Shown here one piece after another: positions 1-8,211 of a stretch of 64,000 bases of DNA (positions within the stretch are counted from its first letter, which is position 1; each line of letters opens with the position of its first letter). Position numbers and translations under genes: made by a program. Origin of the DNA: Helicobacter sp. MIT 00-7814. GTDB lineage: Bacteria; Campylobacterota; Campylobacteria; Campylobacterales; Helicobacteraceae. The notes beneath the pieces were generated by a model that saw nothing but the letters and a program-made list of their open reading frames with translations, ran no database searches and was not told the origin of the DNA. The stretch lies in the NCBI RefSeq assembly GCF_003364115.1, contig NZ_NXLL01000007.1, positions 18,373 through 82,372 of the forward strand, read 5' to 3'.

Positions 1-191
1 TCTCACTTGAATATGTGATTTAAGTAAGAATTAAAAGCGTGCTTTTGGCGCGCTTGCGCTTAGTTAAAATTTTTGAATTGTGGAGAATCTAGCGGAGATT
101 CTCTAAACTTCAGAAATTTTTTAAATCTGTAAGATTTTAAGGAATTTCTGACGCCTTTAGTTAGGTGTAAGGAAAAATTTAAGGAGAAATT

Positions 192-731
192 ATGAGTAAT
201 CAAAAACCAGTAGCAACGAGCTGCACGAGATTAGATCCGATTGATAAGGCAGGATTAGAAGCTTTGATAAAAGATGGCAAGGCAAATCCAGATGTGATAA
301 AAACGCTCAAATGTAAAACCGTCGCAGAGGGGCGTTTCCGCCATGCGAACTATATCCGCAACCTCCCAGCTTACATTGTCGATGAGCCACCAACCTTGCT
401 TGGCGATGACACCGCGCCAAACCCTAGCGAAGCGGTGTTAGCAGCGCTTGGAAGCTGTTTGGCTGTGGGGATTCACGCAAATGCAATCGCGCAAGATATT
501 GTCATCACAAAGCTTGAATTGGAATTGGAAGGTGATTTAAACATTACCGCTGTTTGGGGCACGGGCGATCTTTCAAAAGACAAACCGCTAGGCTTTACGC
601 AGGTGCGTGTGAAAGTGATTTTAGAATCTAATGCCTCAAAACAAAAGCAAGATGAGCTCATCGCGCATGCGACGAAGTATTCCCCGGTGGCAAACACTAT
701 CTTGCGCGCGGTAGATTTGGATATACAATAA
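192..731 (+). CDS. OsmC/Ohr-family (organic hydroperoxide resistance / peroxiredoxin-like) protein
   Basis: 179-aa ORF with AAGGAG RBS; size and conserved Cys-containing segment (LGSCLAVG) typical of OsmC-like proteins; call from family-level resemblance only. Confidence 0.55.
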   Translation: MSNQKPVATSCTRLDPIDKAGLEALIKDGKANPDVIKTLKCKTVAEGRFRHANYIRNLPAYIVDEPPTLLGDDTAPNPSEAVLAALGSCLAVGIHANAIAQDIVITKLELELEGDLNITAVWGTGDLSKDKPLGFTQVRVKVILESNASKQKQDELIAHATKYSPVANTILRAVDLDIQ

Positions 732-1801
732 TGTCCGCGCAGATAAACGCGCTAGATTCCGAGCTTTTGCAAAATGCGCTTGCGGGCTTAAAAAGCGAGC
801 GTGCAAAAATCCACGCCGGAAGCTACCCTAGCGAGATTTTACACGCATTTGGCAAGGCTGGGCTGTATGAACCCTTTGCCAAAAACGGCGCAAAAGGCTT
901 GCAAGAAGCGCTTCTTAGCGTGCAAAAAGTTTCAGAATCTTGCGGAAATAGTGGCTTTTGCGTGTGGTGTCATCAAGCGCTTTTGTGGTATTTACTAAAC
1001 TCTGCGAATAAAACTAGCGCGCAAAAGGAGCTTTTCTCAAAGCTTGCAAGCGGGGAAATACTCGGTGGCACGGGGCTTTCAAATCCACTCAAAGCTTTTG
1101 TAGGCTTAGATAAAATGCGCCTAAGTGCAAAGCGCGTAGAGGGCGGATTTATCATCAATGGCACTTTAGCATGGGTGTCAAATCTAGCGCCCGGGCATTA
1201 TTTTGCCTTTATCGCGGAGGTTGAAAATTCTAAGGATTCTCAACCATGTCCGCCAAAGCCCAAAGAATGCATTATGGCGCTGGCGTGCTGTGAGGGCGCG
1301 CTTAAACTAAAGCCAACCACGCCTTTTTGCGCGCTGGAGGGCTCGGGGACTTATGCCACGCAGTTTAGGGATTATTTTGTGAGTGAAAAAATGGTGCTAG
1401 CAAGCCCGGCAAGCGCGATGATTCCAAAGATTAACGCGGGGTTTGTGCTGCTACAATGTGGCATGGGGCTAGGTATGAGTGAAGGCGCGATAAGGGCGAT
1501 GCAAAGAAACTGCCACAATAAAGCGCGCGTGCAAACGCTCTGTGCGCAAAAAGAAAAGTTAGAGCAAAGAGTGGCGAAAATCGCGCAAAACCCTTACGCA
1601 AAAGGTGCTTTTAGTGCGTCATTGCGCGCGAAGCTTGCAATTATCAAGCTTTTAAATGAGCTAGTCACTCTTTGTGTTTTGCAAAATGGCGCTAGCGGGT
1701 ATTTCCAAGGCGCGTATGCGAGCAAACTTCTTTTGGAATCTGCATTTTTTGGGATTGTAAGCCCAAGCCAAGGGCATATACAAAAGATTTTGGAAGCTTA
1801 G
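731..1801 (+). CDS. flavin-dependent oxidoreductase of acyl-CoA dehydrogenase-like fold (tentative)
   Basis: 356-aa ORF translationally coupled to upstream gene (ATAATG overlap); weak resemblance to ACAD-type N-terminal/middle domains; no firm motif. Confidence 0.3.
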   Translation: MSAQINALDSELLQNALAGLKSERAKIHAGSYPSEILHAFGKAGLYEPFAKNGAKGLQEALLSVQKVSESCGNSGFCVWCHQALLWYLLNSANKTSAQKELFSKLASGEILGGTGLSNPLKAFVGLDKMRLSAKRVEGGFIINGTLAWVSNLAPGHYFAFIAEVENSKDSQPCPPKPKECIMALACCEGALKLKPTTPFCALEGSGTYATQFRDYFVSEKMVLASPASAMIPKINAGFVLLQCGMGLGMSEGAIRAMQRNCHNKARVQTLCAQKEKLEQRVAKIAQNPYAKGAFSASLRAKLAIIKLLNELVTLCVLQNGASGYFQGAYASKLLLESAFFGIVSPSQGHIQKILEA

Positions 1802-1804
1802 TCC

Positions 1805-1915
1805 TTGTGTCACTTGTGCGGGGTTTTGTCCGCACAAGTTCCGATCCTATTCCTTCAATTAGTATCGTCTGCGTGGAAACGAATCGCACTTCGCCTCCGC
1901 TTCGCGCGCATACTC
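1805..1915. repeat. GC-rich palindromic repeat element (hairpin 1812-1821/1830-1839 plus conserved tail gaatcgcacttcgcctccgcttcgcgcgcatactc)
   Basis: perfect 10-bp inverted repeat acttgtgcgg/ccgcacaagt; related copies at 54425-54530, 19840-19875, 20670-20715. Confidence 0.5.
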
Positions 1916-1970
1916 TATCTTTTTTAATTAATGAGATTGTGAGATTCTATCGCCTTAGCTTAAAATCCAC

Positions 1971-2672
1971 TTATTTGCGCTTTTTGATTTCTGCGATACT
2001 TTCTACCACCACGCCCACGATGAGATTTAGCACGATAAAATTTGTAATGCAAATAAAGCTCACAAACACTGCCCACGCCCAATGATATTCCGCCATTACC
2101 GGGCGCACGATTCCCATCGACCAAGATTCTAGCGTCATTATTTGGAATAGCGTATAAAAGCTCTCCCCCAGACTTCCAAACCAATCCGGGAACTTCTCGC
2201 CAAAAAGATTCACACACAAAACCCCATAAGTGTAGTAAAACACCACAAGAAGCGCGAGAATCCCAAGCATTGAAGGCAGAGTATTTAGCATAGCAGAAGA
2301 GATAAGGCGCATTGATGGGATAACGCTAAGCAAGCGGAAAACTCGTATCACGCGCAATGCTCTAAGCACAGATATACCATTGCCCGCCGCCACGCTCACA
2401 ATGACGATAATAAAATCAAACCAATTCCACCCGCTCTCTTTGCCTATGAAAAATCTAAATCCATACGCCATTATGCGCGCCAAAATTTCTACTACAAAAA
2501 TCACCAAACATACACTATCAACGCCGCTAAGCACCGCACCAAAGCGCGCGCTTACAGGCTGTATCGTATCAAGCCCCAAAGTAAGCGCGTTTAAAAGAAT
2601 TATGCTAGTGATAAAAATACTCCACTTAGTGGATTCCAATATGCGTCTAAGCCATGAAAAACACTCAAGCAT
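1971..2672 (-). CDS. NaChBac-family prokaryotic voltage-gated sodium channel (single 6-TM domain)
   Basis: S4 voltage sensor with Arg every third residue (LRALRVIRVFRLLSVIPSMRL); pore/selectivity filter FQIMTLESWSMGIVRP nearly identical to NaChBac/NavAb TLESWSM; WNWFDF S3 motif; ends right after S6 (no C-terminal coiled coil). Confidence 0.9.
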   Translation of the reverse strand: MLECFSWLRRILESTKWSIFITSIILLNALTLGLDTIQPVSARFGAVLSGVDSVCLVIFVVEILARIMAYGFRFFIGKESGWNWFDFIIVIVSVAAGNGISVLRALRVIRVFRLLSVIPSMRLISSAMLNTLPSMLGILALLVVFYYTYGVLCVNLFGEKFPDWFGSLGESFYTLFQIMTLESWSMGIVRPVMAEYHWAWAVFVSFICITNFIVLNLIVGVVVESIAEIKKRK

Positions 2673-2680
2673 AAAGCCCC

Positions 2681-3040
2681 CTAGTTTTGTATCGCTACTA
2701 TTATGAAAAACACCACGACTACTAGCGCGATGATTTTGCCAATTTTCGTGGATAGGATTTTGCCAAGGATATTGCCTAGTATTTCTCCGCCTGCCATTCC
2801 TGCGCTAAACGCATCGGGATTAGATTTTCTTGCGTTAAGCAGTTTTGTTGTGGTGCCATCGTTAAAAGTGATAAGCAAGATTCCACCATCTGAATCAAAT
2901 CTACTTCTGCTTATCTCTCGTCTGCCGCTTTCGTCCATATAAGAGTAGCTAGCGACTTTTTCATAAACGCGCTGTGAGCCGTTTCCTTGAGTTATGATGA
3001 GTTTTGAGCCTTGTTGTGTGATATTTTTTATTGTTGCCAT
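2681..3040 (-). CDS. hypothetical small protein with C-terminal transmembrane anchor
   Basis: 119-aa ORF, hydrophobic C-terminus (IIALVVVVFFIIVAI); 8 nt upstream of channel gene on same strand. Confidence 0.4.
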   Translation of the reverse strand: MATIKNITQQGSKLIITQGNGSQRVYEKVASYSYMDESGRREISRSRFDSDGGILLITFNDGTTTKLLNARKSNPDAFSAGMAGGEILGNILGKILSTKIGKIIALVVVVFFIIVAIQN

Positions 3041-3076
3041 TGTTTGTTCCTTTCAAATGTGGCGTATCAAGTGGGA

Positions 3077-3739
3077 TTATTGAAATTTATACAAAAGGAT
3101 TTTGTCCTGCATTTGGTTGTAAGATTCTATGTCGCCGAGCTGGAAATACATTTTTGCTAGCTCTTGGAGTTGCTCTATATTTGGCGCAGTTTGAGCTGTA
3201 TTTTGGCTAGCTCCATTTTGACTATTTGGCGCGTTTTTATCCAAATCTTTTTCTATATCCTTTAGCACTTGCAAGGCTTTGGCAGTATCGATTGTTTGTG
3301 TTTCATCTTGCGTGCCTTGTGTGGAATCTAGCCCATCTAATTTAGAATCTAGCCCGCTTTTATCTTGCGCTTTTTGCGTTTCTTTGGCATAGATTTTGGT
3401 TAGATTCTGCTTTGGTAGCAAGGATATGAGCGCATTTTTATCTTTTGTGAGATCATTTTGAAGCTGTGAGATTCTGATACTTTCTAGCTTTGGATCGTTT
3501 TGCTTGAGGTGCGCTAGGAGTTGCGATCGCGCATAGATTCGCGCGCGTGCTTGTCCTTTGGCGTCAGCCTTATCCACAATAGGCGTGCAAATCACAAAAT
3601 ATTCCTGCCCCTCCAATGCTTGCTCTAATACCTTAGAATCCTTGCCCTCACATATTTGCTTAGCCTTTTCAAGTGGCGCGCCTTGCAATATCGCTACTTG
3701 CGCGCAAAGTAAAAGCGTGCAAATCCTAGAAGTCTTCAT
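3077..3739 (-). CDS. hypothetical secreted protein (signal peptide, Q/D-rich C-terminal half)
   Basis: ORF 3077-3772; start moved to Met12 (3739) where a signal peptide MKTSRICTLLLCAQVAILQG begins and overlap with upstream gene is removed; start choice uncertain. Confidence 0.45.
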   Translation of the reverse strand: MKTSRICTLLLCAQVAILQGAPLEKAKQICEGKDSKVLEQALEGQEYFVICTPIVDKADAKGQARARIYARSQLLAHLKQNDPKLESIRISQLQNDLTKDKNALISLLPKQNLTKIYAKETQKAQDKSGLDSKLDGLDSTQGTQDETQTIDTAKALQVLKDIEKDLDKNAPNSQNGASQNTAQTAPNIEQLQELAKMYFQLGDIESYNQMQDKILLYKFQ

Positions 3740-4232
3740 ATTTTTTGCTTGGCTTTTTTGGTTTCGCGTCACGATTCCAGCCTAGTGTCACGCGCACGAC
3801 TTTTGAGCTTTTATTTACCTGCGCTTTTATCGTTACGACATTTTTGAGTATGGCTTGAGATTGTGAGCTGATATTTTGCGTGAGCGTATCGACATCTTTT
3901 TTGCTGACACTTGCTTCGCCTTCAGAGCTTTGCTCGCTTAGGATTTTGCTTAGTTGTTCTTGGGACTCTTGAGATTTGATATCCTCGCTTAGGTATTTGC
4001 TGATATAGGCTTTGGCGGATAGCTCGGCTTTGGTGGTGGCTTGGCGTATATCTTTGGCATCACCAAAGTGATAGCTTGCCTCGCCGATAGAGATGATACG
4101 CGTGATTTCTTTAGTCTGCGGGTTTATGACGATTTCATTTCTTTGCACACCTAGCGTTTGCATATCTTCAAAGTCATCAGCGAGCCCTACGCTCACACAG
4201 CATATTAAAAGTAAAGAAAGAAGTTTTTTCAT
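3726..4232 (-). CDS. putative lipoprotein, possibly LPP20-like
   Basis: AAGGAG RBS; signal peptide with Cys (LLLICCVSVG); 168 aa, size/composition reminiscent of Helicobacter Lpp20-family lipoproteins; family call tentative. Confidence 0.45.
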   Translation of the reverse strand: MKKLLSLLLICCVSVGLADDFEDMQTLGVQRNEIVINPQTKEITRIISIGEASYHFGDAKDIRQATTKAELSAKAYISKYLSEDIKSQESQEQLSKILSEQSSEGEASVSKKDVDTLTQNISSQSQAILKNVVTIKAQVNKSSKVVRVTLGWNRDAKPKKPSKKYEDF

Positions 4233-4255
4233 GGTTTTGTCTCCTTGAGTGTTTT

Positions 4256-5455
4256 TTATTGTTTTTTGAGCGAAAATGAAGCTTTTATTTCACTAAGCTT
4301 TTTTACCTCCTCTTGTGTGAGATAAACTACCACCATAATATCTGGCGCATCTACGAGGAATTTACCGCCATAAGGCACTAGGAATCTATTTGGCTCATAG
4401 TTTCGTGCTGCGTTATATTCCTCCTCGCTAAACTTTTCCAATTTATGCTTATTTACATGAGCTACAGCATCATTTCCTTCTGCTGGATTCTCTTGAAAAT
4501 AATTAGGAGTAAAAAATCTTTTTGCAGGTGGGAATTCTTTATTATTTGCATCAAAAAATCTCACCTGTAGTTTTCCATAGTCAAATTTATTTAACTCTGA
4601 TTGCACATAGTTTTGAAACAAATCATTAATCCTTAGACTCCACAATACCTGCACTGCTGGCGCAAGGGTATAAAATCTCACAACGCTAGCACTGCGAATT
4701 CCGCCTATCCCAAAAAAGCTATAAGGAGCCCGACAGCCTCCATTGCTTTCACTCTCACTACTATCGCAAACCTGCCCTGCACTAGAGAGAAGCTTTTTCA
4801 CACCTTCTAGGTAGCCCTTTTGATATTTGATGCTTAATGTAAGCACATAGGCTTTATATTTGGGATCTTTTGGCATTTTAAAGGTATAGCACCAATACAC
4901 CTCATCGCGGCAATATTGATAAATCTCCGTAAGCTCTAATGGATCAAATTTCAAAATCTTTGTCTCCCATGCCTCGCCACTTTTTAGCGGCTCTATAACA
5001 GTAGCTTGGAATGCCTCTTGGAAGTTTTCTGCTTTTTTGTGGCTTTCATCGACATAGACTTTGAAAGTCCCAGAGTTCATATCTTTGACATCGACATTGA
5101 GATCTTTTAGCACGCCTACAAGCTTGCCATCTTCTATTTCTACTTGCGCTTTGACTTCATAGAGCCCATGCTGATTTTTATTAGCTGAAAGCTGTTTATA
5201 GTCCAGCACATACGCATTGCTAAAGCCGATTATTTTTTCATTGAGATTCTCATCTTCTAGCACTTGTTTGGTGCGGACGTATTCGCCCATAGATTCTCGC
5301 ACGGCGTTGGCTATGGCATCTTTTTTAGCAGCTTCTACGCTTTCACCTATGCCAATAGATTCTGTCGTTATGCTAGCGTTGAGTCCTTGCAGAAAAACAA
5401 AGGCAAAAAGACAGGCGCATATTTGCGCGCGGAATGTTTGATAAATAGTTTTCAT
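4256..5455 (-). CDS. hypothetical secreted protein (399 aa)
   Basis: AAGGAG RBS overlapping stop codon of upstream DUF285 gene (translational coupling); N-terminal signal peptide; no recognisable domain. Confidence 0.5.
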   Translation of the reverse strand: MKTIYQTFRAQICACLFAFVFLQGLNASITTESIGIGESVEAAKKDAIANAVRESMGEYVRTKQVLEDENLNEKIIGFSNAYVLDYKQLSANKNQHGLYEVKAQVEIEDGKLVGVLKDLNVDVKDMNSGTFKVYVDESHKKAENFQEAFQATVIEPLKSGEAWETKILKFDPLELTEIYQYCRDEVYWCYTFKMPKDPKYKAYVLTLSIKYQKGYLEGVKKLLSSAGQVCDSSESESNGGCRAPYSFFGIGGIRSASVVRFYTLAPAVQVLWSLRINDLFQNYVQSELNKFDYGKLQVRFFDANNKEFPPAKRFFTPNYFQENPAEGNDAVAHVNKHKLEKFSEEEYNAARNYEPNRFLVPYGGKFLVDAPDIMVVVYLTQEEVKKLSEIKASFSLKKQ

Positions 5456-5471: not shown

Positions 5472-7337
5472 TTATATGCGTCTTTTAAATTCTCTTACGC
5501 ATGACTCGTTGCGACCACAGCGCTTGCATCGATAATAGTCTTTTTCTTCACCAACTTTGTAGCTTACTCTTCTATAACTACCATCGCTTTGCTTCTCATC
5601 TTGGGTGATAATATTTTCACTCAATAACTCCGTCTTTACGAGTTTCCAGCAAAAATAGTTTCCACAGGATTCGCAGTAAGTATCACCTTTAATGCCGTAA
5701 AATACACCAACTATAGAAAGCACGATTAAAATCGCCCAAATGGTGAAAAATAATTCTTCTGAATATGCAACTCCAAAATATTTTAAAATTGCAACAATAA
5801 GCAATGTAAGGAAAAACCCAACTAAACCGCCTACGAGGATACCTCCTCCCAAAAATGACACGAGTATAGTGCCAAACCTAGTAGAAGTGCGATACTTCCA
5901 ATCTATTTTTTTAGTATTAGCGCGCTGTTTTTTCATTCGTGCTTCTTTTTTGTATTCTGGGGAGCTTATGTCATCTTGCTTGAAGCTTGTCGCACCTTCA
6001 AACATATTCTTCATACTCAAAACTTTGCTTACATTCCATTTATTAAGTGGTTGATTAAAGCTTGTCGCACCTGCAAACATATGTCCCATATTTATAACAC
6101 TACTTACATTCCATTTATTAAGTGGTTGATTAAAGCTTGCCGCATCCGAAAACATAAGAGACATATGTGCAACATTGCTTGTATCCCAATTATTAAGTGG
6201 TTGGTTGAAGCTTTTGGCGCGCTTAAACATACCAGTCATACCTGTAACACTACTTACATTCCATTTATTAAGTGGTTGATTGAAATTTTCCACACCTGAA
6301 AACATAAGCCCCATATCTGTAACACTACTTACATCCCATTTATCAAGTGGTTGATTAAAGCTTGTCGCACCTGCAAACATACACTGCATATCTGTAACAC
6401 TACTTACATTCCAATTATTAAGCGGTTGATTGAAGCTTTTGGCACTCATAAACATACTATTCATATCTGTAACACTACTTACATCCCAATTATCAAGTGG
6501 TTGATTGAAATATTCTGCATTCTCAAACATACTACTCATATCTGTAACATTACTTACATCCCAAGTCTCTATACCGCTAAAGTCCTTGCGCTTGCTCTCT
6601 TTGAAAAGCTCGCTCATATTAGTGATAGCGCTTGTATCAATATCTGCTAATGAGACATCTTCATCAAAAGCTAAAACTTTTAATACTATAGGGCTAGTTG
6701 GCTTATATTTTCCATTAATTTTTTGAAACCCTTTATTAAACCAGCTAGGGAGGCTCTGCATACCGCTAGATTCAAACATATCTTTTGCAGATATTGCTTT
6801 AACATTCCAGCTTTCAAGATTTTGATTGAAGTTTGTAGCATCCTTAAATATAAGAGCCATATCCATAACTTTGCTTACATTCCATTTATCAAGTGGTTGG
6901 TTAAAGCTTGTTGCACTCATAAATATACCTCTAATTTCTGCAACATTGCTTGTATTCCAATTGTTAAGTGGCTGGTTAAAGCTCGTTGCATGCGCAAACA
7001 TACCTTTCATATTTGTAACATTACTTATATCCCAAGAATTAAGCGGCTGATTAAAGCTTTTCGCATCTGCAAACATAAGAGACATATCTGTAACACTACT
7101 TACATCCCAAGAATCAAGTGGTTGGTTAAAGCTTGTTGTACCCGCAAACATAAACTTCATATTTGTAACATTACTTACATCCCAAGTCTCTATACCGCTA
7201 AAGTCCTTGCGCTTGCTCTCTTTGAAAAGTTCGCTCATATCAGTGATAGCACTTGTATCAATATCTCCTAAGTAGATACTTTCATCATTAACTAGATTTT
7301 GTAGTTCTTCTTTTGAGGTGGGTTTGTATTTTGCCAT
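5472..7337 (-). CDS. DUF285 (BspA-type / Mycoplasma-type leucine-rich repeat) protein with internal module duplication, two predicted TM helices and C-terminal C4 zinc ribbon
   Basis: about 12 copies of the ~26-aa repeat F..A..FNQPL..WdVS.VT.M..MF; residues 1-215 and 215-430 are near-duplicates (both contain IDTSAITDMSELFKESKRKDFSGIETWDVSNVT); hydrophobic stretches then CESCGNYFC...CKRCGRNESC; no signal peptide. Confidence 0.7.
   Translation of the reverse strand: MAKYKPTSKEELQNLVNDESIYLGDIDTSAITDMSELFKESKRKDFSGIETWDVSNVTNMKFMFAGTTSFNQPLDSWDVSSVTDMSLMFADAKSFNQPLNSWDISNVTNMKGMFAHATSFNQPLNNWNTSNVAEIRGIFMSATSFNQPLDKWNVSKVMDMALIFKDATNFNQNLESWNVKAISAKDMFESSGMQSLPSWFNKGFQKINGKYKPTSPIVLKVLAFDEDVSLADIDTSAITNMSELFKESKRKDFSGIETWDVSNVTDMSSMFENAEYFNQPLDNWDVSSVTDMNSMFMSAKSFNQPLNNWNVSSVTDMQCMFAGATSFNQPLDKWDVSSVTDMGLMFSGVENFNQPLNKWNVSSVTGMTGMFKRAKSFNQPLNNWDTSNVAHMSLMFSDAASFNQPLNKWNVSSVINMGHMFAGATSFNQPLNKWNVSKVLSMKNMFEGATSFKQDDISSPEYKKEARMKKQRANTKKIDWKYRTSTRFGTILVSFLGGGILVGGLVGFFLTLLIVAILKYFGVAYSEELFFTIWAILIVLSIVGVFYGIKGDTYCESCGNYFCWKLVKTELLSENIITQDEKQSDGSYRRVSYKVGEEKDYYRCKRCGRNESCVREFKRRI
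5740..7271. repeat. coding periodic repeat array (~78-bp DUF285 units) with higher-order ~620-bp direct duplication
   Basis: e.g. 6551-6665 vs 7176-7285 nearly identical; generates long spurious antisense ORFs. Confidence 0.7.
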
Positions 7338-7340
7338 GTT

Positions 7341-7967
7341 TTATCCTTTGTTATAAACTTTGCATTTTTCTTTATTTGCTTTGACATAATCGATAAAGTT
7401 TTGCACATCCTCTGCCTCTGTAATTTCGCCATAGCAAGTTTGCCTCTCTGGGAGATTTGGGCGGATATTTTCAGGGATGCTAAGCGCATTTTTAGGGCCA
7501 AAGTAGTAAAACTCCTCGCACACTAGCACAAAAAGTGATTTCAAATCATGTGTTTTATCATCATCATGTGATTGACATCCCGCATTATTATGTGAGCAAT
7601 CTGAACCTGCTTCACCATTTGAAGGGTGATTTTTATTTGGAAAAACTTTAAAGCCTTGTGGTTCGTCTGCGCTAGGCTCATAAATATTATCACCTTGCGT
7701 GTTGGTGGCATCCGGGCGCTTTTGTGGGTAAGATTCCCAATACTCGGCAAAAGTTAGCCTTTTGGTGATTTTGGCTAGGTAGATGAGCTTTTCTTTTCCT
7801 ATTTCTGAGCCATCAAGTGTTTTGGAGCTAAAGCCCGCTATCCACTCGCCAACTTTCGCCACCTCTCTAATATATGGCTTGCAAGTAGCAAGAGTAAGCA
7901 CGCCAAAATCATAATTTGGCGCAAATCCACTATCTACGGTCATTTTATATGAACGAAGTAAGGACAC
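7341..7967 (-). CDS. conserved hypothetical protein (N-terminal motif DSGFAPNYDFGVLTLATCKP; possibly Nmad2-like nucleotide-modification-associated domain)
   Basis: 208-aa ORF, GTG start at 7967 preceded by AGGAGG; 3-nt gap to DUF285 gene; family assignment from memory only. Confidence 0.4.
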   Translation of the reverse strand: MSLLRSYKMTVDSGFAPNYDFGVLTLATCKPYIREVAKVGEWIAGFSSKTLDGSEIGKEKLIYLAKITKRLTFAEYWESYPQKRPDATNTQGDNIYEPSADEPQGFKVFPNKNHPSNGEAGSDCSHNNAGCQSHDDDKTHDLKSLFVLVCEEFYYFGPKNALSIPENIRPNLPERQTCYGEITEAEDVQNFIDYVKANKEKCKVYNKG

Positions 7968-8013
7968 AGAACCTCCTAATTTATAAAATTAGCAAAAAAG
8001 AAGTCGCATTATG

Positions 8014-8023
8014 CCCCCCCCCC
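8014..8023. repeat. homopolymeric C10 tract (G10 on the minus/coding side) in promoter region of the 7967-1971 gene cluster
   Basis: minus strand reads TTTAATAAGGGGGGGGGGCATAATGCGAC...ATTAGGAGGTTCTGTG; tract abuts a CATAAT -10-like hexamer ~47 nt upstream of the GTG start. Confidence 0.85.
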
Positions 8024-8211
8024 TTATTAAACTTTACTTAAAAAAGCAAAACACAAGAGAATTTTTTTTAAAAAAATGTAGTTTTAGATTTTTGGGAGAT
8101 TTTTAGAAGTTTGGAATTGTGTGGGGAAAAATAAATTTAAAAAAAGGGATTAGTTCTTTTTCACTATTTTTTTTTACTATTTTAGGAATTTATGAAGCAA
8201 AAATTATTTTT

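What the first reader, a model, noticed from the sequence alone, without database searches (positions are those of the whole stretch)
7968..8211. Promoter poly-G tract abutting a -10-like hexamer
On the coding (minus) strand the region reads TTTAATAA-G10-CATAATGCGACTTCTTTTTTGCTAATTTTATAAATTAGGAGGTTCTGTG. Homopolymer-length changes here would alter promoter spacing or UP-element phasing rather than reading frame, which gives graded or on/off transcriptional control of all seven downstream genes.
Basis: partly seen in the sequence, partly recalled or inferred. Interest (0 to 1): 0.55.

Follow-up and report, generated by a model that had tools for sequence, protein, structure and literature searches.

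The report
Slippery poly-G promoter switch in Helicobacter
A run of ten G's sits inside the promoter of a seven-gene surface-protein and sodium-channel operon in a rodent-type Helicobacter; it changes length between otherwise identical genomes and most likely turns the operon up or down at random, a well-known bacterial trick seen here in a new place.

Summary
G10 lies at window 8014-8023 on the minus strand, directly followed by CATAAT, 46 nt upstream of the GTG start of an Nmad2 gene. The window has three G/C runs of 10 or more, against about 0.02 expected.

The promoter reading is supported by comparison, not by expression data:
- In genomes at least 99.9% identical, the tract is the only indel over 7-17 kb (G9/G10, and G11/12/13 in another species). 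Assemblies also break at it.
- The layout (T/A)TTAAG, AT-rich spacer, Gn, TAnAAT-type hexamer, about 45 nt leader, SD and start recurs in at least four Helicobacter lineages. It precedes the same operon core and other genes. The hexamer varies only at positions 1 and 3.
- The non-G spacer (13, 12 or 10 nt) and the commonest tract length (10, 11 or 13) always sum to 23 and never exceed it. This indicates selection on the distance between the upstream element and the -10 hexamer.

No structured RNA, Rfam family or conserved ORF explains the tract.

It is a new member of a known kind: homopolymer-in-promoter phase variation, as in meningococcal porA/opc and H. pylori NikS/sabA. Two points go beyond that. 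The promoter is a reusable, multi-copy cassette, and the switched operon ends in a NavAb-type voltage-gated sodium channel.

The parts
8014..8023 (-). Homopolymeric G10 tract (C10 on the + strand). It is the hypermutable element and occupies about -13 to -22 of the predicted promoter.
   Evidence: Length polymorphism G9/G10 in the sister lineage, and 6/11/12/13 at the orthologous promoter of other species.
8008..8013 (-). CATAAT, the predicted -10 hexamer, directly abutting the tract.
   Evidence: Invariant next to the tract in the window, L003-5, L007 (two copies), L008, L010-13 and L093. Replaced only by TAAAAT or TAGAAT in L141-L143, so A2, A4, A5 and T6 are always kept. It lies 42-49 nt from the start codon in eight contexts.
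8033..8042 (-). TTTAAGTAAA, an upstream promoter element resembling the Campylobacter '-35 region' consensus TTTAAGTnTT. TTTAAG ends 23 nt before CATAAT.
   Evidence: (T/A)TTAAG is conserved in all lineages, at a distance that compensates for tract length. Consensus and spacer data come from PMC3824568.
8024..8032 (-). AT-rich non-G part of the spacer (GTTTAATAA). With TAAA of the 10-mer it makes 13 nt between TTTAAG and the tract.
7999..8004 (-). Predicted transcription start zone, 4-9 nt after the hexamer. Inferred only.
   Evidence: Inference from sigma-70-type geometry. The duplicated promoter copies in L007 lose similarity a few bases after CATAATACA.
7972..7977 (-). Shine-Dalgarno AGGAGG, 4 nt before the start codon.
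   Evidence: The same AGGAGGTTCT(A/G)TG is found in L003-6 and as a remnant in L010.
7341..7967 (-). Gene 1: Nmad2-family protein, 208 aa, GTG start.
   Evidence: Pfam PF18753, E 7e-39. Homologues.
5472..7337 (-). Gene 2: DUF285 / PARCEL-repeat surface protein, 621 aa, with C-terminal membrane segments and a Cys-rich tail.
   Evidence: Pfam PF03382, E 5e-154. NCBIfam PARCEL repeat.
4256..5455 (-). Gene 3: 399-aa secreted protein of unknown function. It is the most conserved marker of the operon core.
   Evidence: No Pfam or PDB match.
3726..4232 (-). Gene 4: 168-aa protein with an N-terminal signal or lipoprotein-like sequence.
   Evidence: Conserved next to gene 3 in all lineages.
3077..3772 (-). 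Gene 5: 231-aa secreted protein of unknown function. The true start is probably downstream of the listed GTG, because relatives are 200-227 aa.
2681..3040 (-). Gene 6: 119-aa protein with a C-terminal membrane anchor.
1971..2672 (-). Gene 7: bacterial voltage-gated sodium channel of the NavAb/NavMs type, 233 aa, with an S4 arginine ladder and the filter sequence TLESWSM.
   Evidence: Pfam Ion_trans, E 8e-45. PDB NavMs/NavAb chains, E 1e-60 to 1e-62 over the full length.

Best explanation
The G10 run is a simple-sequence contingency tract built into the core of a housekeeping-sigma (sigma-70/80 type) promoter.

Proposed anatomy (inferred): CATAAT is the -10 hexamer. The G run fills about -13 to -22, the place where Campylobacter and Helicobacter promoters normally carry a T-run ('-16 region'). 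TTTAAGTAAA, 19 bp upstream of the hexamer (TTTAAG is 23 bp upstream), is the epsilonproteobacterial '-35 region' element. Transcription would start about 7 nt after the hexamer. That gives a leader of about 35 nt with AGGAGG and the GTG of the Nmad2 gene.

Proposed mechanism: slipped-strand mispairing during replication adds or removes a G. These bacteria lack MutSLH mismatch repair (established knowledge). Each change shifts the distance, and the rotational phase by about 34 degrees per bp, between the upstream element and the -10 hexamer. RNA polymerase binding, and so transcription of the operon, then changes heritably, reversibly and at random. The operon is Nmad2, a PARCEL surface protein, four secreted or membrane proteins and a NavAb-type sodium channel.

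Shown here: the tract, its hypermutability, the conserved promoter-like architecture, and the compensation between spacer and tract length.

Inferred: the start site, the effect on expression, which length is ON, and co-transcription of all seven genes. Because one total distance (23) is the mode in all three cassette types seen in more than one assembly, I take G10 in this window to be the favoured, probably expressing, state.
For: (1) Non-random tract: 3 G/C runs of 10 or more against about 0.02 expected, and none of length 7-9.

(2) Hypermutability.
- L003 vs L004: 16,818 nt, 1 mismatch, 2 gaps. The gaps are the two G tracts.
- L003 vs L005: 1 gap, which is this tract (G9 vs G10).
- L010, L012 and L013 (another species): 7-10 kb, 3-6 mismatches, 1 gap, which is the orthologous tract (13/11/12).
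- Contigs L006 and L015 begin at the tract, L143 ends inside one, and L009 has a scaffold gap right after it.

(3) The architecture (T/A)TTAAG, N10-13, Gn, [CT]AnAAT, about 45 nt, SD, start recurs in the window, L003-5, L007 (two copies), L008, L010-13, L093 and L141-143, while the flanks diverge. The hexamer changes only at positions 1 and 3 (CATAAT, TAAAAT, TAGAAT).

(4) The two L007 copies are near-identical from about 76 nt upstream of the tract to CATAATACA and unrelated beyond. The conserved unit therefore ends at the predicted start site.

(5) Compensation: 13+10, 12+11 and 10+13 all give 23. That total is found in 14 of the 20 tract copies whose length could be read. The others are 22, 22, 22, 21, 21 and 16. 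None is above 23 (L009).

(6) In L007, L010, L141 and L142 the upstream gene is on the opposite strand, so a promoter must lie in that intergenic region.

(7) In a further lineage the same operon has TTGACA-AGG(C)-T8/T14-G-TATAAT, a variable homopolymer in the same promoter position.

(8) A consensus TTTAAGTATT placed 19 bp from TATAAT raised the activity of a C. jejuni promoter, and natural spacers are 15-19 bp (PMC3824568).
Against: There are no expression or start-site data.

TTTAAG at a fixed distance is not a general feature of other promoter-like sites in this window. Only two clear cases were found, both at 21 nt rather than 23. The optimum length therefore cannot be fixed from sequence.

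CLO-3 (L008) keeps the operon with only G6, a distance of 16. The upstream element may not be essential, or that promoter may be locked at a different level.

In the window lineage all isolates and assemblies show G10. Variation there rests on the sister lineage (G9 vs G10).

Tract lengths taken from short-read assemblies can carry errors.

The standard E. coli-type promoter scan does not call this site. That is expected for a promoter without TTGACA.
Confidence: 0.75

Rival explanations
1. The tract is transcribed as part of the mRNA leader, from a promoter further upstream or by read-through from the DUF455 gene. It would then act after transcription, for example as the target of a C/U-rich small RNA, as in the H. 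pylori RepG/tlpB G-repeat system, with tract length tuning translation or stability.
For: In the window the upstream DUF455 gene is on the same strand, and no terminator-like site lies between them. G-repeats in 5' UTRs are a proven regulatory target in H. pylori (PMC8295292).
Against: No -10-like hexamer is conserved upstream of the tract across lineages, whereas the hexamer immediately downstream is invariant in form. In four lineages the tract lies in a divergent intergenic region, so read-through is impossible there. Similarity between duplicated copies ends just after the hexamer rather than extending through a leader. Compensation with the upstream DNA spacer has no rationale for an RNA target. 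The intergenic RNA is not unusually structured (z = 0.23), and there is no Rfam hit even at E <= 1. A RepG-like sRNA could not be searched for outside the 64 kb.
Confidence: 0.08
2. The tract is part of the promoter, but its length acts other than through the TTAAG-to-hexamer distance. It could be the binding site of a regulator, or a rigid G:C block next to the -10 that sets melting or curvature. The upstream TTAAG would be incidental.
For: TTTAAG is not generally enriched at a fixed distance in other promoter-like sites of the window. CLO-3 has the operon with G6 and a 16-nt distance. In H. pylori sabA, tract length works through DNA shape and UP-like contacts rather than a strict -35 (PMC4081817).
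Against: Three cassette types with different non-G spacers (13, 12 and 10 nt) have modal tracts of 10, 11 and 13, giving the same total of 23. That is hard to explain unless distance to an upstream element is what is selected.
Confidence: 0.1
3. The tract is a neutral mutational hotspot with no regulatory consequence, for instance a relic of polymerase slippage tolerated in non-coding DNA.
For: No functional data exist. Intergenic DNA tolerates indels.
Against: An uninterrupted long G run is kept at the same promoter position in lineages whose proteins are only 44-67% identical. Its length clusters tightly and compensates for the flanking spacer. Neutral tracts would decay through interruptions and drift in length.
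Confidence: 0.05
4. The tract belongs to a small ORF on the opposite strand. The complement of CATAAT supplies an ATG followed by Pro codons (window 8011-8106, MPPPLIK...), which would make this ordinary frameshift phase variation of a peptide.
For: One search lists this 31-aa ORF. In L008/L010 a GGAG lies 4-5 nt before that ATG (read).
Against: The peptide is not conserved: 13 aa in L007 and an unrelated sequence elsewhere. There is no SD in L007. Where the hexamer is TAAAAT or TAGAAT (L141-143) there is no ATG at all.
Confidence: 0.02

Closest known systems
Neisseria meningitidis porA (poly-G) and opc (poly-C) promoters
   Same: A G:C homopolymer lies inside the core promoter between the -10 and the upstream element. 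Slippage by single bases changes promoter geometry and gives high, intermediate or no transcription of a surface protein. (van der Ende 1995 and Sarkari 1994, titles as listed in the references of PMC5084427; the details are from my own knowledge.)
   Different: The phylum and promoter grammar differ: here there is no TTGACA but a TTAAG-type upstream element 23 bp away. The tract abuts the -10 directly. It drives a seven-gene operon rather than one gene. The promoter occurs as a multi-copy cassette.
H. pylori NikS (HPnc4160) T-repeat promoter, and other -35/-10 T/A tracts listed for H. pylori 26695
   Same: Same genus. A homopolymer in the promoter region varies during infection and gives multiphasic expression (PMC8035401). 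Nine loci with tracts between -35 and -10 are listed in PMC4081817.
   Different: Those tracts are T or A runs, which fit the normal AT-rich spacer. Here the run is G, in the place of the usual T-rich '-16 region'. The organism is a non-pylori Helicobacter.
H. pylori sabA T-tract 'rheostat'
   Same: Intergenic tract length tunes RNA polymerase binding by changing the alignment of upstream contacts with the core promoter (PMC4081817).
   Different: The sabA tract lies upstream of, and adjacent to, the -35 element, not between the upstream element and the -10. It is a T-tract.
H. pylori tlpB leader G-repeat targeted by RepG sRNA
   Same: A variable G-repeat upstream of an operon in Helicobacter, with lengths of 6-16 G in strains (PMC8295292).
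   Different: That repeat is transcribed and acts after transcription. Here the anatomy places the tract upstream of the start site.
Bordetella pertussis fim2/fim3/fimX promoters (poly-C tract; own knowledge, not checked here)
   Same: A family of related promoters, each with a C:G homopolymer between the -10 and an upstream site, gives independent phase variation of several genes.
   Different: Those promoters serve paralogous fimbrial genes and depend on the activator BvgA. Here the cassette precedes unrelated genes, and no activator is known.

Membership tests
SSR-mediated transcriptional phase variation (homopolymer inside a core promoter; porA/opc type) | Uninterrupted homopolymer long enough to slip (about 8 or more G/C) | tested here: met
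   G10 at 8014-8023. Run-length distribution.
SSR-mediated transcriptional phase variation (homopolymer inside a core promoter; porA/opc type) | The tract lies outside any reading frame, between a -10 hexamer and an upstream promoter element | tested here: met
   No conserved ORF spans it. The conserved flanks are TTAAG and [CT]AnAAT. That these are the functional promoter elements is inferred.
SSR-mediated transcriptional phase variation (homopolymer inside a core promoter; porA/opc type) | Tract length differs between otherwise near-identical genomes | tested here: met
   It is the only indel in 7-17 kb of at least 99.9% identical DNA.
SSR-mediated transcriptional phase variation (homopolymer inside a core promoter; porA/opc type) | The transcription start lies downstream of the tract | not testable with these tools
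   No transcriptome data. Indirect support only: the hexamer is 42-49 nt from start codons, and the duplicated module ends just after the hexamer.
SSR-mediated transcriptional phase variation (homopolymer inside a core promoter; porA/opc type) | Transcript or protein level depends on tract length, with reversible switching within a clone | not testable with these tools
   Hints only: spacer/tract compensation and assembly breaks at the tract.
sabA-type rheostat (T/A tract adjacent to the -35 element) | A T- or A-tract placed upstream of, or adjacent to, the -35 element | tested here: not met
   The tract is G and abuts the -10. Definition from PMC4081817.
RepG-type sRNA-targeted leader G-repeat | The G-repeat lies inside the transcribed 5' UTR | tested here: inconclusive
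   No conserved -10 upstream and an invariant hexamer downstream argue against this. There are no start-site data.
RepG-type sRNA-targeted leader G-repeat | A cognate C/U-rich sRNA is present in the genome | not tested
   Only the 64-kb window was available. The only Rfam gathering-threshold hit in it is one tRNA.
Translational (intragenic) phase variation | The tract lies within a conserved ORF, so that length changes shift the frame | tested here: not met
   In contrast, the other two tracts of the window are intragenic.

The most novel reading that the evidence does not exclude
The tract is one copy of a dispersed, portable promoter cassette of about 60-95 bp: (hairpin)-(T/A)TTAAG-N10-13-Gn-TAnAAT. 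Non-pylori Helicobacter would have duplicated or recombined this cassette in front of unrelated operons. Copies were seen before a 378-aa gene with Nmad2, a TM2-protein and Nmad2 cluster, the 399-aa/sodium-channel operon, a 173-aa gene and a lipoprotein gene, with up to two copies within 5 kb.

Each copy would switch independently, giving combinatorial surface and ion-channel phenotypes. Selection would hold each copy at one exact element-to-hexamer distance. This would be a mobile 'random switch' promoter rather than a locus-specific repeat. It would also make a voltage-gated sodium channel a phase-variable trait.
Probability: 0.4. Interest if true: 0.65.

Novelty: new member of a known kind. 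Interest (0 to 1): 0.5.

Why it matters
Promoter-located homopolymers are an established way for host-adapted bacteria to randomise expression. This case adds three things.

1. It shows the mechanism with a G-run, not the usual T/A-run, sitting where Helicobacter and Campylobacter promoters normally have their T-rich -16 region. This is in poorly studied non-pylori helicobacters, found in an isolate genome, gut metagenomes and unannotated sequencing runs.

2. The natural compensation between spacer and tract length (13+10, 12+11, 10+13) amounts to a ready-made genetic experiment. It indicates that a TTAAG element 23 bp from the -10 matters in these bacteria, whose '-35' determinants are still debated. 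The prediction can be tested directly with a handful of reporter constructs.

3. The switched genes include a NavAb-type voltage-gated sodium channel, next to secreted proteins of unknown function. The biological role of bacterial Nav channels is largely unknown. A natural ON/OFF switch tied to surface proteins suggests a host-interaction role and offers isogenic ON and OFF variants for study.

Tried and rejected
- The E. coli-type promoter/terminator scan found nothing at the site and no excess over shuffles. It is not informative for promoters of this type.
- Rfam: the only gathering-threshold hit in the window is a tRNA. No hit at E <= 1 in 7800-9700.
- RNA folding of the intergenic region gave z = 0.23, so no structured element.
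- The antisense small ORF starting at the complement of CATAAT is not conserved and was rejected.
- I first thought every long G tract in these genomes abuts a -10. This is wrong. The tract at 26152 is followed by TATTTG and is intragenic. The tract at 9425 is intragenic in a Zn-ribbon methyltransferase.
- Testing whether TTTAAG at a fixed distance is a general promoter feature of this genome gave too few sites. There were two clear promoters at 21 nt and no enrichment.
- The genome-contig scan with the 399-aa family returned one locus only.
- A metagenome scan for the window-lineage promoter found nothing.
These were essentially chance matches, with one Helicobacter-like hit (L093).
- P0001, the NCBI 200-aa version of the Nmad2 protein, could not be looked up.
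- Function of the operon's unknown proteins: Pfam, NCBIfam and PADLOC gave nothing significant. PDB sequence search gave nothing. The AlphaFold model of the 399-aa protein was mediocre (pLDDT 69), and Foldseek against the PDB had no match with E < 0.2.
- Wosten 1998 (PMC106926) is not held. The consensus is therefore cited through PMC3824568.

Full report
**1. The observation.** On the minus strand the window reads TTTAAGTAAAGTTTAATAA-G10-CATAATGCGACTTCTTTTTTGCTAATTTTATAAATTAGGAGGTTCTGTG.

| Element | Window coordinates (minus strand) |
|---|---|
| G10 | 8023-8014 |
| CATAAT | 8013-8008 |
| AGGAGG | 7977-7972 |
| GTG | 7967-7965 |

G and C runs in the 64 kb are never longer than 6, apart from three runs of 10, 10 and 11. 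About 0.02 (independent bases) or 0.005 (first-order Markov) runs of 10 or more are expected. The same G10 is present in an NCBI assembly and in two Logan assemblies of the same or a sister isolate, so it is not an assembly artefact.

The GTG start is correct. The Pfam Nmad2 match begins at residue 2, and relatives have ATG at exactly that codon. NCBI's annotation starts 8 codons later.

**2. Organism and genes.** The best protein match is Helicobacter sp. MIT 00-7814. G+C is about 42%. Seven minus-strand ORFs follow the tract, with gaps of 3, 16, 23, -47, 36 and 8 nt:

- Nmad2 (PF18753);
- a 621-aa DUF285/PARCEL-repeat surface protein;
- a 399-aa secreted protein, a 168-aa signal or lipoprotein-like protein, a protein of about 220 aa and a 119-aa membrane-anchored protein, all without known family;
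- a 233-aa channel that matches NavMs/NavAb chains over its full length at E about 1e-60. It has the TLESWSM filter sequence; that this is the NavAb filter is my own knowledge.

Terminator-like hairpins inside the operon do not exceed the shuffled expectation. Co-transcription is plausible but not shown.

**3. The tract is hypermutable.** A sister lineage is about 94% identical in DNA.
- Three metagenome-derived contigs of this lineage are 99.98-100% identical to each other over 12-17 kb.
- Their only indels are the two G tracts. This tract is G9 in L003 and G10 in L004 and L005.
- A fourth contig, L006, begins right after the tract.

At the orthologous promoter of another Helicobacter species:
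- contigs differing by 3-6 substitutions in 7-10 kb carry G13, G13, G12 and G11, and this is again the only indel;
- one scaffold has an N-gap immediately after the tract;
- one contig begins at the tract's last G.

Helicobacter sp. CLO-3, a relative of that species, has G6 at the same place.

**4. It sits in a promoter.** The same layout was found in the window, L003-5, L007 (Helicobacter sp. MIT 05-5293, two copies), L008, L010-13, L093 and L141-143. The layout is (T/A)TTAAG, an AT-rich stretch of 10-13 nt, Gn, a hexamer, a leader, then SD and start codon. The flanking sequence is otherwise diverged.
- The hexamer is CATAAT, TAAAAT or TAGAAT. Only positions 1 and 3 vary, the pattern expected of a working -10 box.
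- The hexamer is 42-49 nt from the start codon in eight contexts. This is close to the 30-43 nt typical for C. jejuni (PMC3824568).
- The two copies in L007 are nearly identical from about 76 nt upstream of the tract to CATAATACA and unrelated beyond. The conserved unit therefore ends about where transcription should start.
- In L007, L010, L141 and L142 the upstream gene is divergent, so a promoter has to lie in that intergenic region.
- No -10-like hexamer is conserved upstream of the tract.
- In a more distant lineage (L016, L017) the same operon is preceded by TTGACA-AGG(C)-T8 or T14-G-TATAAT. That is a variable T-run in the equivalent position.

**5. Spacing compensation.** The non-G stretch between TTAAG and the tract differs between cassette types.

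| Cassette type | Non-G stretch | Commonest tract | Total |
|---|---|---|---|
| Window type | 13 nt | G10 | 23 |
| L007/L141-143 type | 12 nt | G11 | 23 |
| L008-13 type | 10 nt | G13 | 23 |
| L093 (single copy) | 11 nt | G10 | 21 |

Of the 20 tract copies whose length could be read, 14 have a total of 23. The others are 22, 22, 22, 21, 21 and 16, and none exceeds 23 (L009). Several of these copies are repeat assemblies of the same isolate, so they are not all independent.

A mutational equilibrium or a sequencing bias cannot know the length of the adjacent AT stretch. Selection on the distance between TTAAG and the hexamer is the simplest explanation.

In C. jejuni the '-35 region' consensus is TTTAAGTnTT, and spacers from that 10-mer to TATAAT are 15-19 bp. 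A construct with TTTAAGTATT placed 19 bp from TATAAT (TTTAAG 23 bp away) was more active than the natural promoter (PMC3824568). The window's G10 gives that same geometry. I therefore take G10 as the favoured, probably expressing, state. This is an inference.

**6. Rivals.**
- *RepG-like reading* (tract in the 5' UTR, PMC8295292). It is disfavoured by the anatomy in section 4, by the lack of RNA structure (z = 0.23) and by the absence of Rfam matches. It cannot be excluded without a start-site map.
- *Small antisense ORF* starting at the complement of CAT. It is not conserved and cannot exist where the hexamer is TAAAAT or TAGAAT.
- *Neutral hotspot.* It does not explain the tight, compensated length distribution.
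- *Promoter effect independent of TTAAG* (DNA shape, or a bound regulator). This remains possible. TTTAAG is not generally enriched at a fixed distance in the window: two clear promoters have it at 21 nt. CLO-3 also lives with G6.

**7. History of the locus.**
- In the L010 lineage the promoter is followed by a remnant of the Nmad2 start (AGGAGGTTCTATG, MSLLRSYKMIVD...). A DUF285 gene and the core genes come next.
- In CLO-3 the promoter sits directly before the core genes.
- In L003 most of the DUF285 gene is missing.
- In L007 the gene set is split into two units, each with its own copy of the cassette.

The promoter and the core are the stable partners, and the first genes vary. The core is the 399-aa, 168-aa, about 220-aa and about 120-aa proteins plus the sodium channel.

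**8. Comparison with what is known.** Functionally this is transcriptional phase variation by a homopolymer inside a core promoter. The closest cases are:
- meningococcal porA and opc (references listed in PMC5084427);
- H. pylori NikS T-repeat (PMC8035401);
- the -35/-10 T/A tracts listed for H. pylori 26695 (PMC4081817).

It is not a sabA-type tract, because both position and base differ. By anatomy it is not a RepG-type leader repeat. In Campylobacter only about 20% of phase-variable gene groups have intergenic tracts (PMC6321876). I found no paper on this organism's tracts.

**9. Verdict.** It is a new member of a known kind. The added value lies in three points: the reusable cassette, the spacing compensation, which gives a directly testable rule for epsilonproteobacterial promoters, and a NavAb-type sodium channel placed under a stochastic switch. 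What is missing is any direct measurement of transcription.

Noticed in passing
window 26152-26161 (+ strand C10), gene 26118-27723: Intragenic poly-C tract 34 nt after an SD+ATG. With C9 or C12 the ORF runs 534/535 aa and is a DUF6056 membrane protein. With the C10 present it stops after 22 codons. This is a classical frameshift-type phase-variable gene, OFF in this window.
   Followed up: yes
window 9425-9435 (+ strand G11), ORFs 9173-9478 and 9544-10110: The tract lies inside a split gene. It separates an N-terminal CxxC...CxxC zinc-ribbon ORF (good SD) from a Methyltransf_23 ORF. G9 or G12 fuses them into a 311/312-aa protein. Observed lengths are 11 (window), 13 (NCBI sister assembly), 10 and 11 (sister lineage), all out of frame for the fusion. 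Oddly, its flanks TTAGC-Gn-CAAAATAC match the promoter cassette of L007 (TTAGC-G11-CATAATAC) at 12 of 13 bases. This is unexplained.
   Followed up: partly
L017 10618-10626 and L018 2118-2126; compare L016: In another Helicobacter lineage the homologue of the 399-aa gene carries an intragenic C9. It is split into 241 + 124 aa, whereas L016 has CCCC at that site and an intact 361-aa gene. The same operon thus seems to be switched by a frameshift tract there, instead of or in addition to a promoter tract.
   Followed up: partly
L016 about 6860-6900; L017 about 8490-8530: The promoter of the homologous operon reads TTGACA-AGG-T8-G-TATAAT in L016 and TTGACA-AGGC-T14-G-TATAAT in L017. This is a poly-T run of very different length between a perfect -35 and an extended -10.
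   Followed up: no
L142 5169-5179 and 5776-5784; L142 10753-10762; L143 4696-4702: Two more long G/C tracts lie inside a split glycosyltransferase gene. A second copy of the G-tract promoter cassette lies downstream of the sodium-channel gene, before a 173-aa gene. The L143 contig ends inside that tract.
   Followed up: no
L093 4294-4303 (OWJG01000316.1): A Helicobacter-like metagenome contig (neighbouring ORFs resemble tRNA-guanine transglycosylase, a DegT-type aminotransferase and a DUF354-like protein by eye, not searched; G+C 0.49) has ATTAAGCAGATTCTAAT-G10-CATAATACC 65 nt upstream of a lipoprotein gene (MKKSLLFGIVVGALFFAGCSQ...). The cassette therefore also precedes genes unrelated to this operon.
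   Followed up: partly
window 1971-2672 (-): The last gene of the operon is a full-length NavAb/NavMs-type bacterial voltage-gated sodium channel (E about 1e-60 to PDB chains, TLESWSM filter). It is conserved at the end of this secreted-protein operon in every lineage examined.
   Followed up: partly
window 7977-7991 (-): A near-perfect AT palindrome, TAATTT-TAT-AAATTA, lies in the predicted leader and ends at the first base of the Shine-Dalgarno sequence. It is conserved in the sister lineage but not in L007. It could be an operator or a weak RNA hairpin.
   Followed up: no
window 5913-7351 vs L003; L010 2897-3060; L009-L015: The gene content behind the promoter is fluid. Most of the DUF285 gene is missing in the sister lineage. 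Only a 12-codon remnant of Nmad2 survives in the L010 lineage. The 399-aa homologue there is frameshifted (323 + 73 aa) at a T-run in all samples.
   Followed up: partly
window 7941-7967 (-): The public annotation of the Nmad2 protein (200 aa) starts at an internal ATG. The domain alignment and the relatives support the GTG 8 codons upstream, which has the strong AGGAGG.
   Followed up: yes
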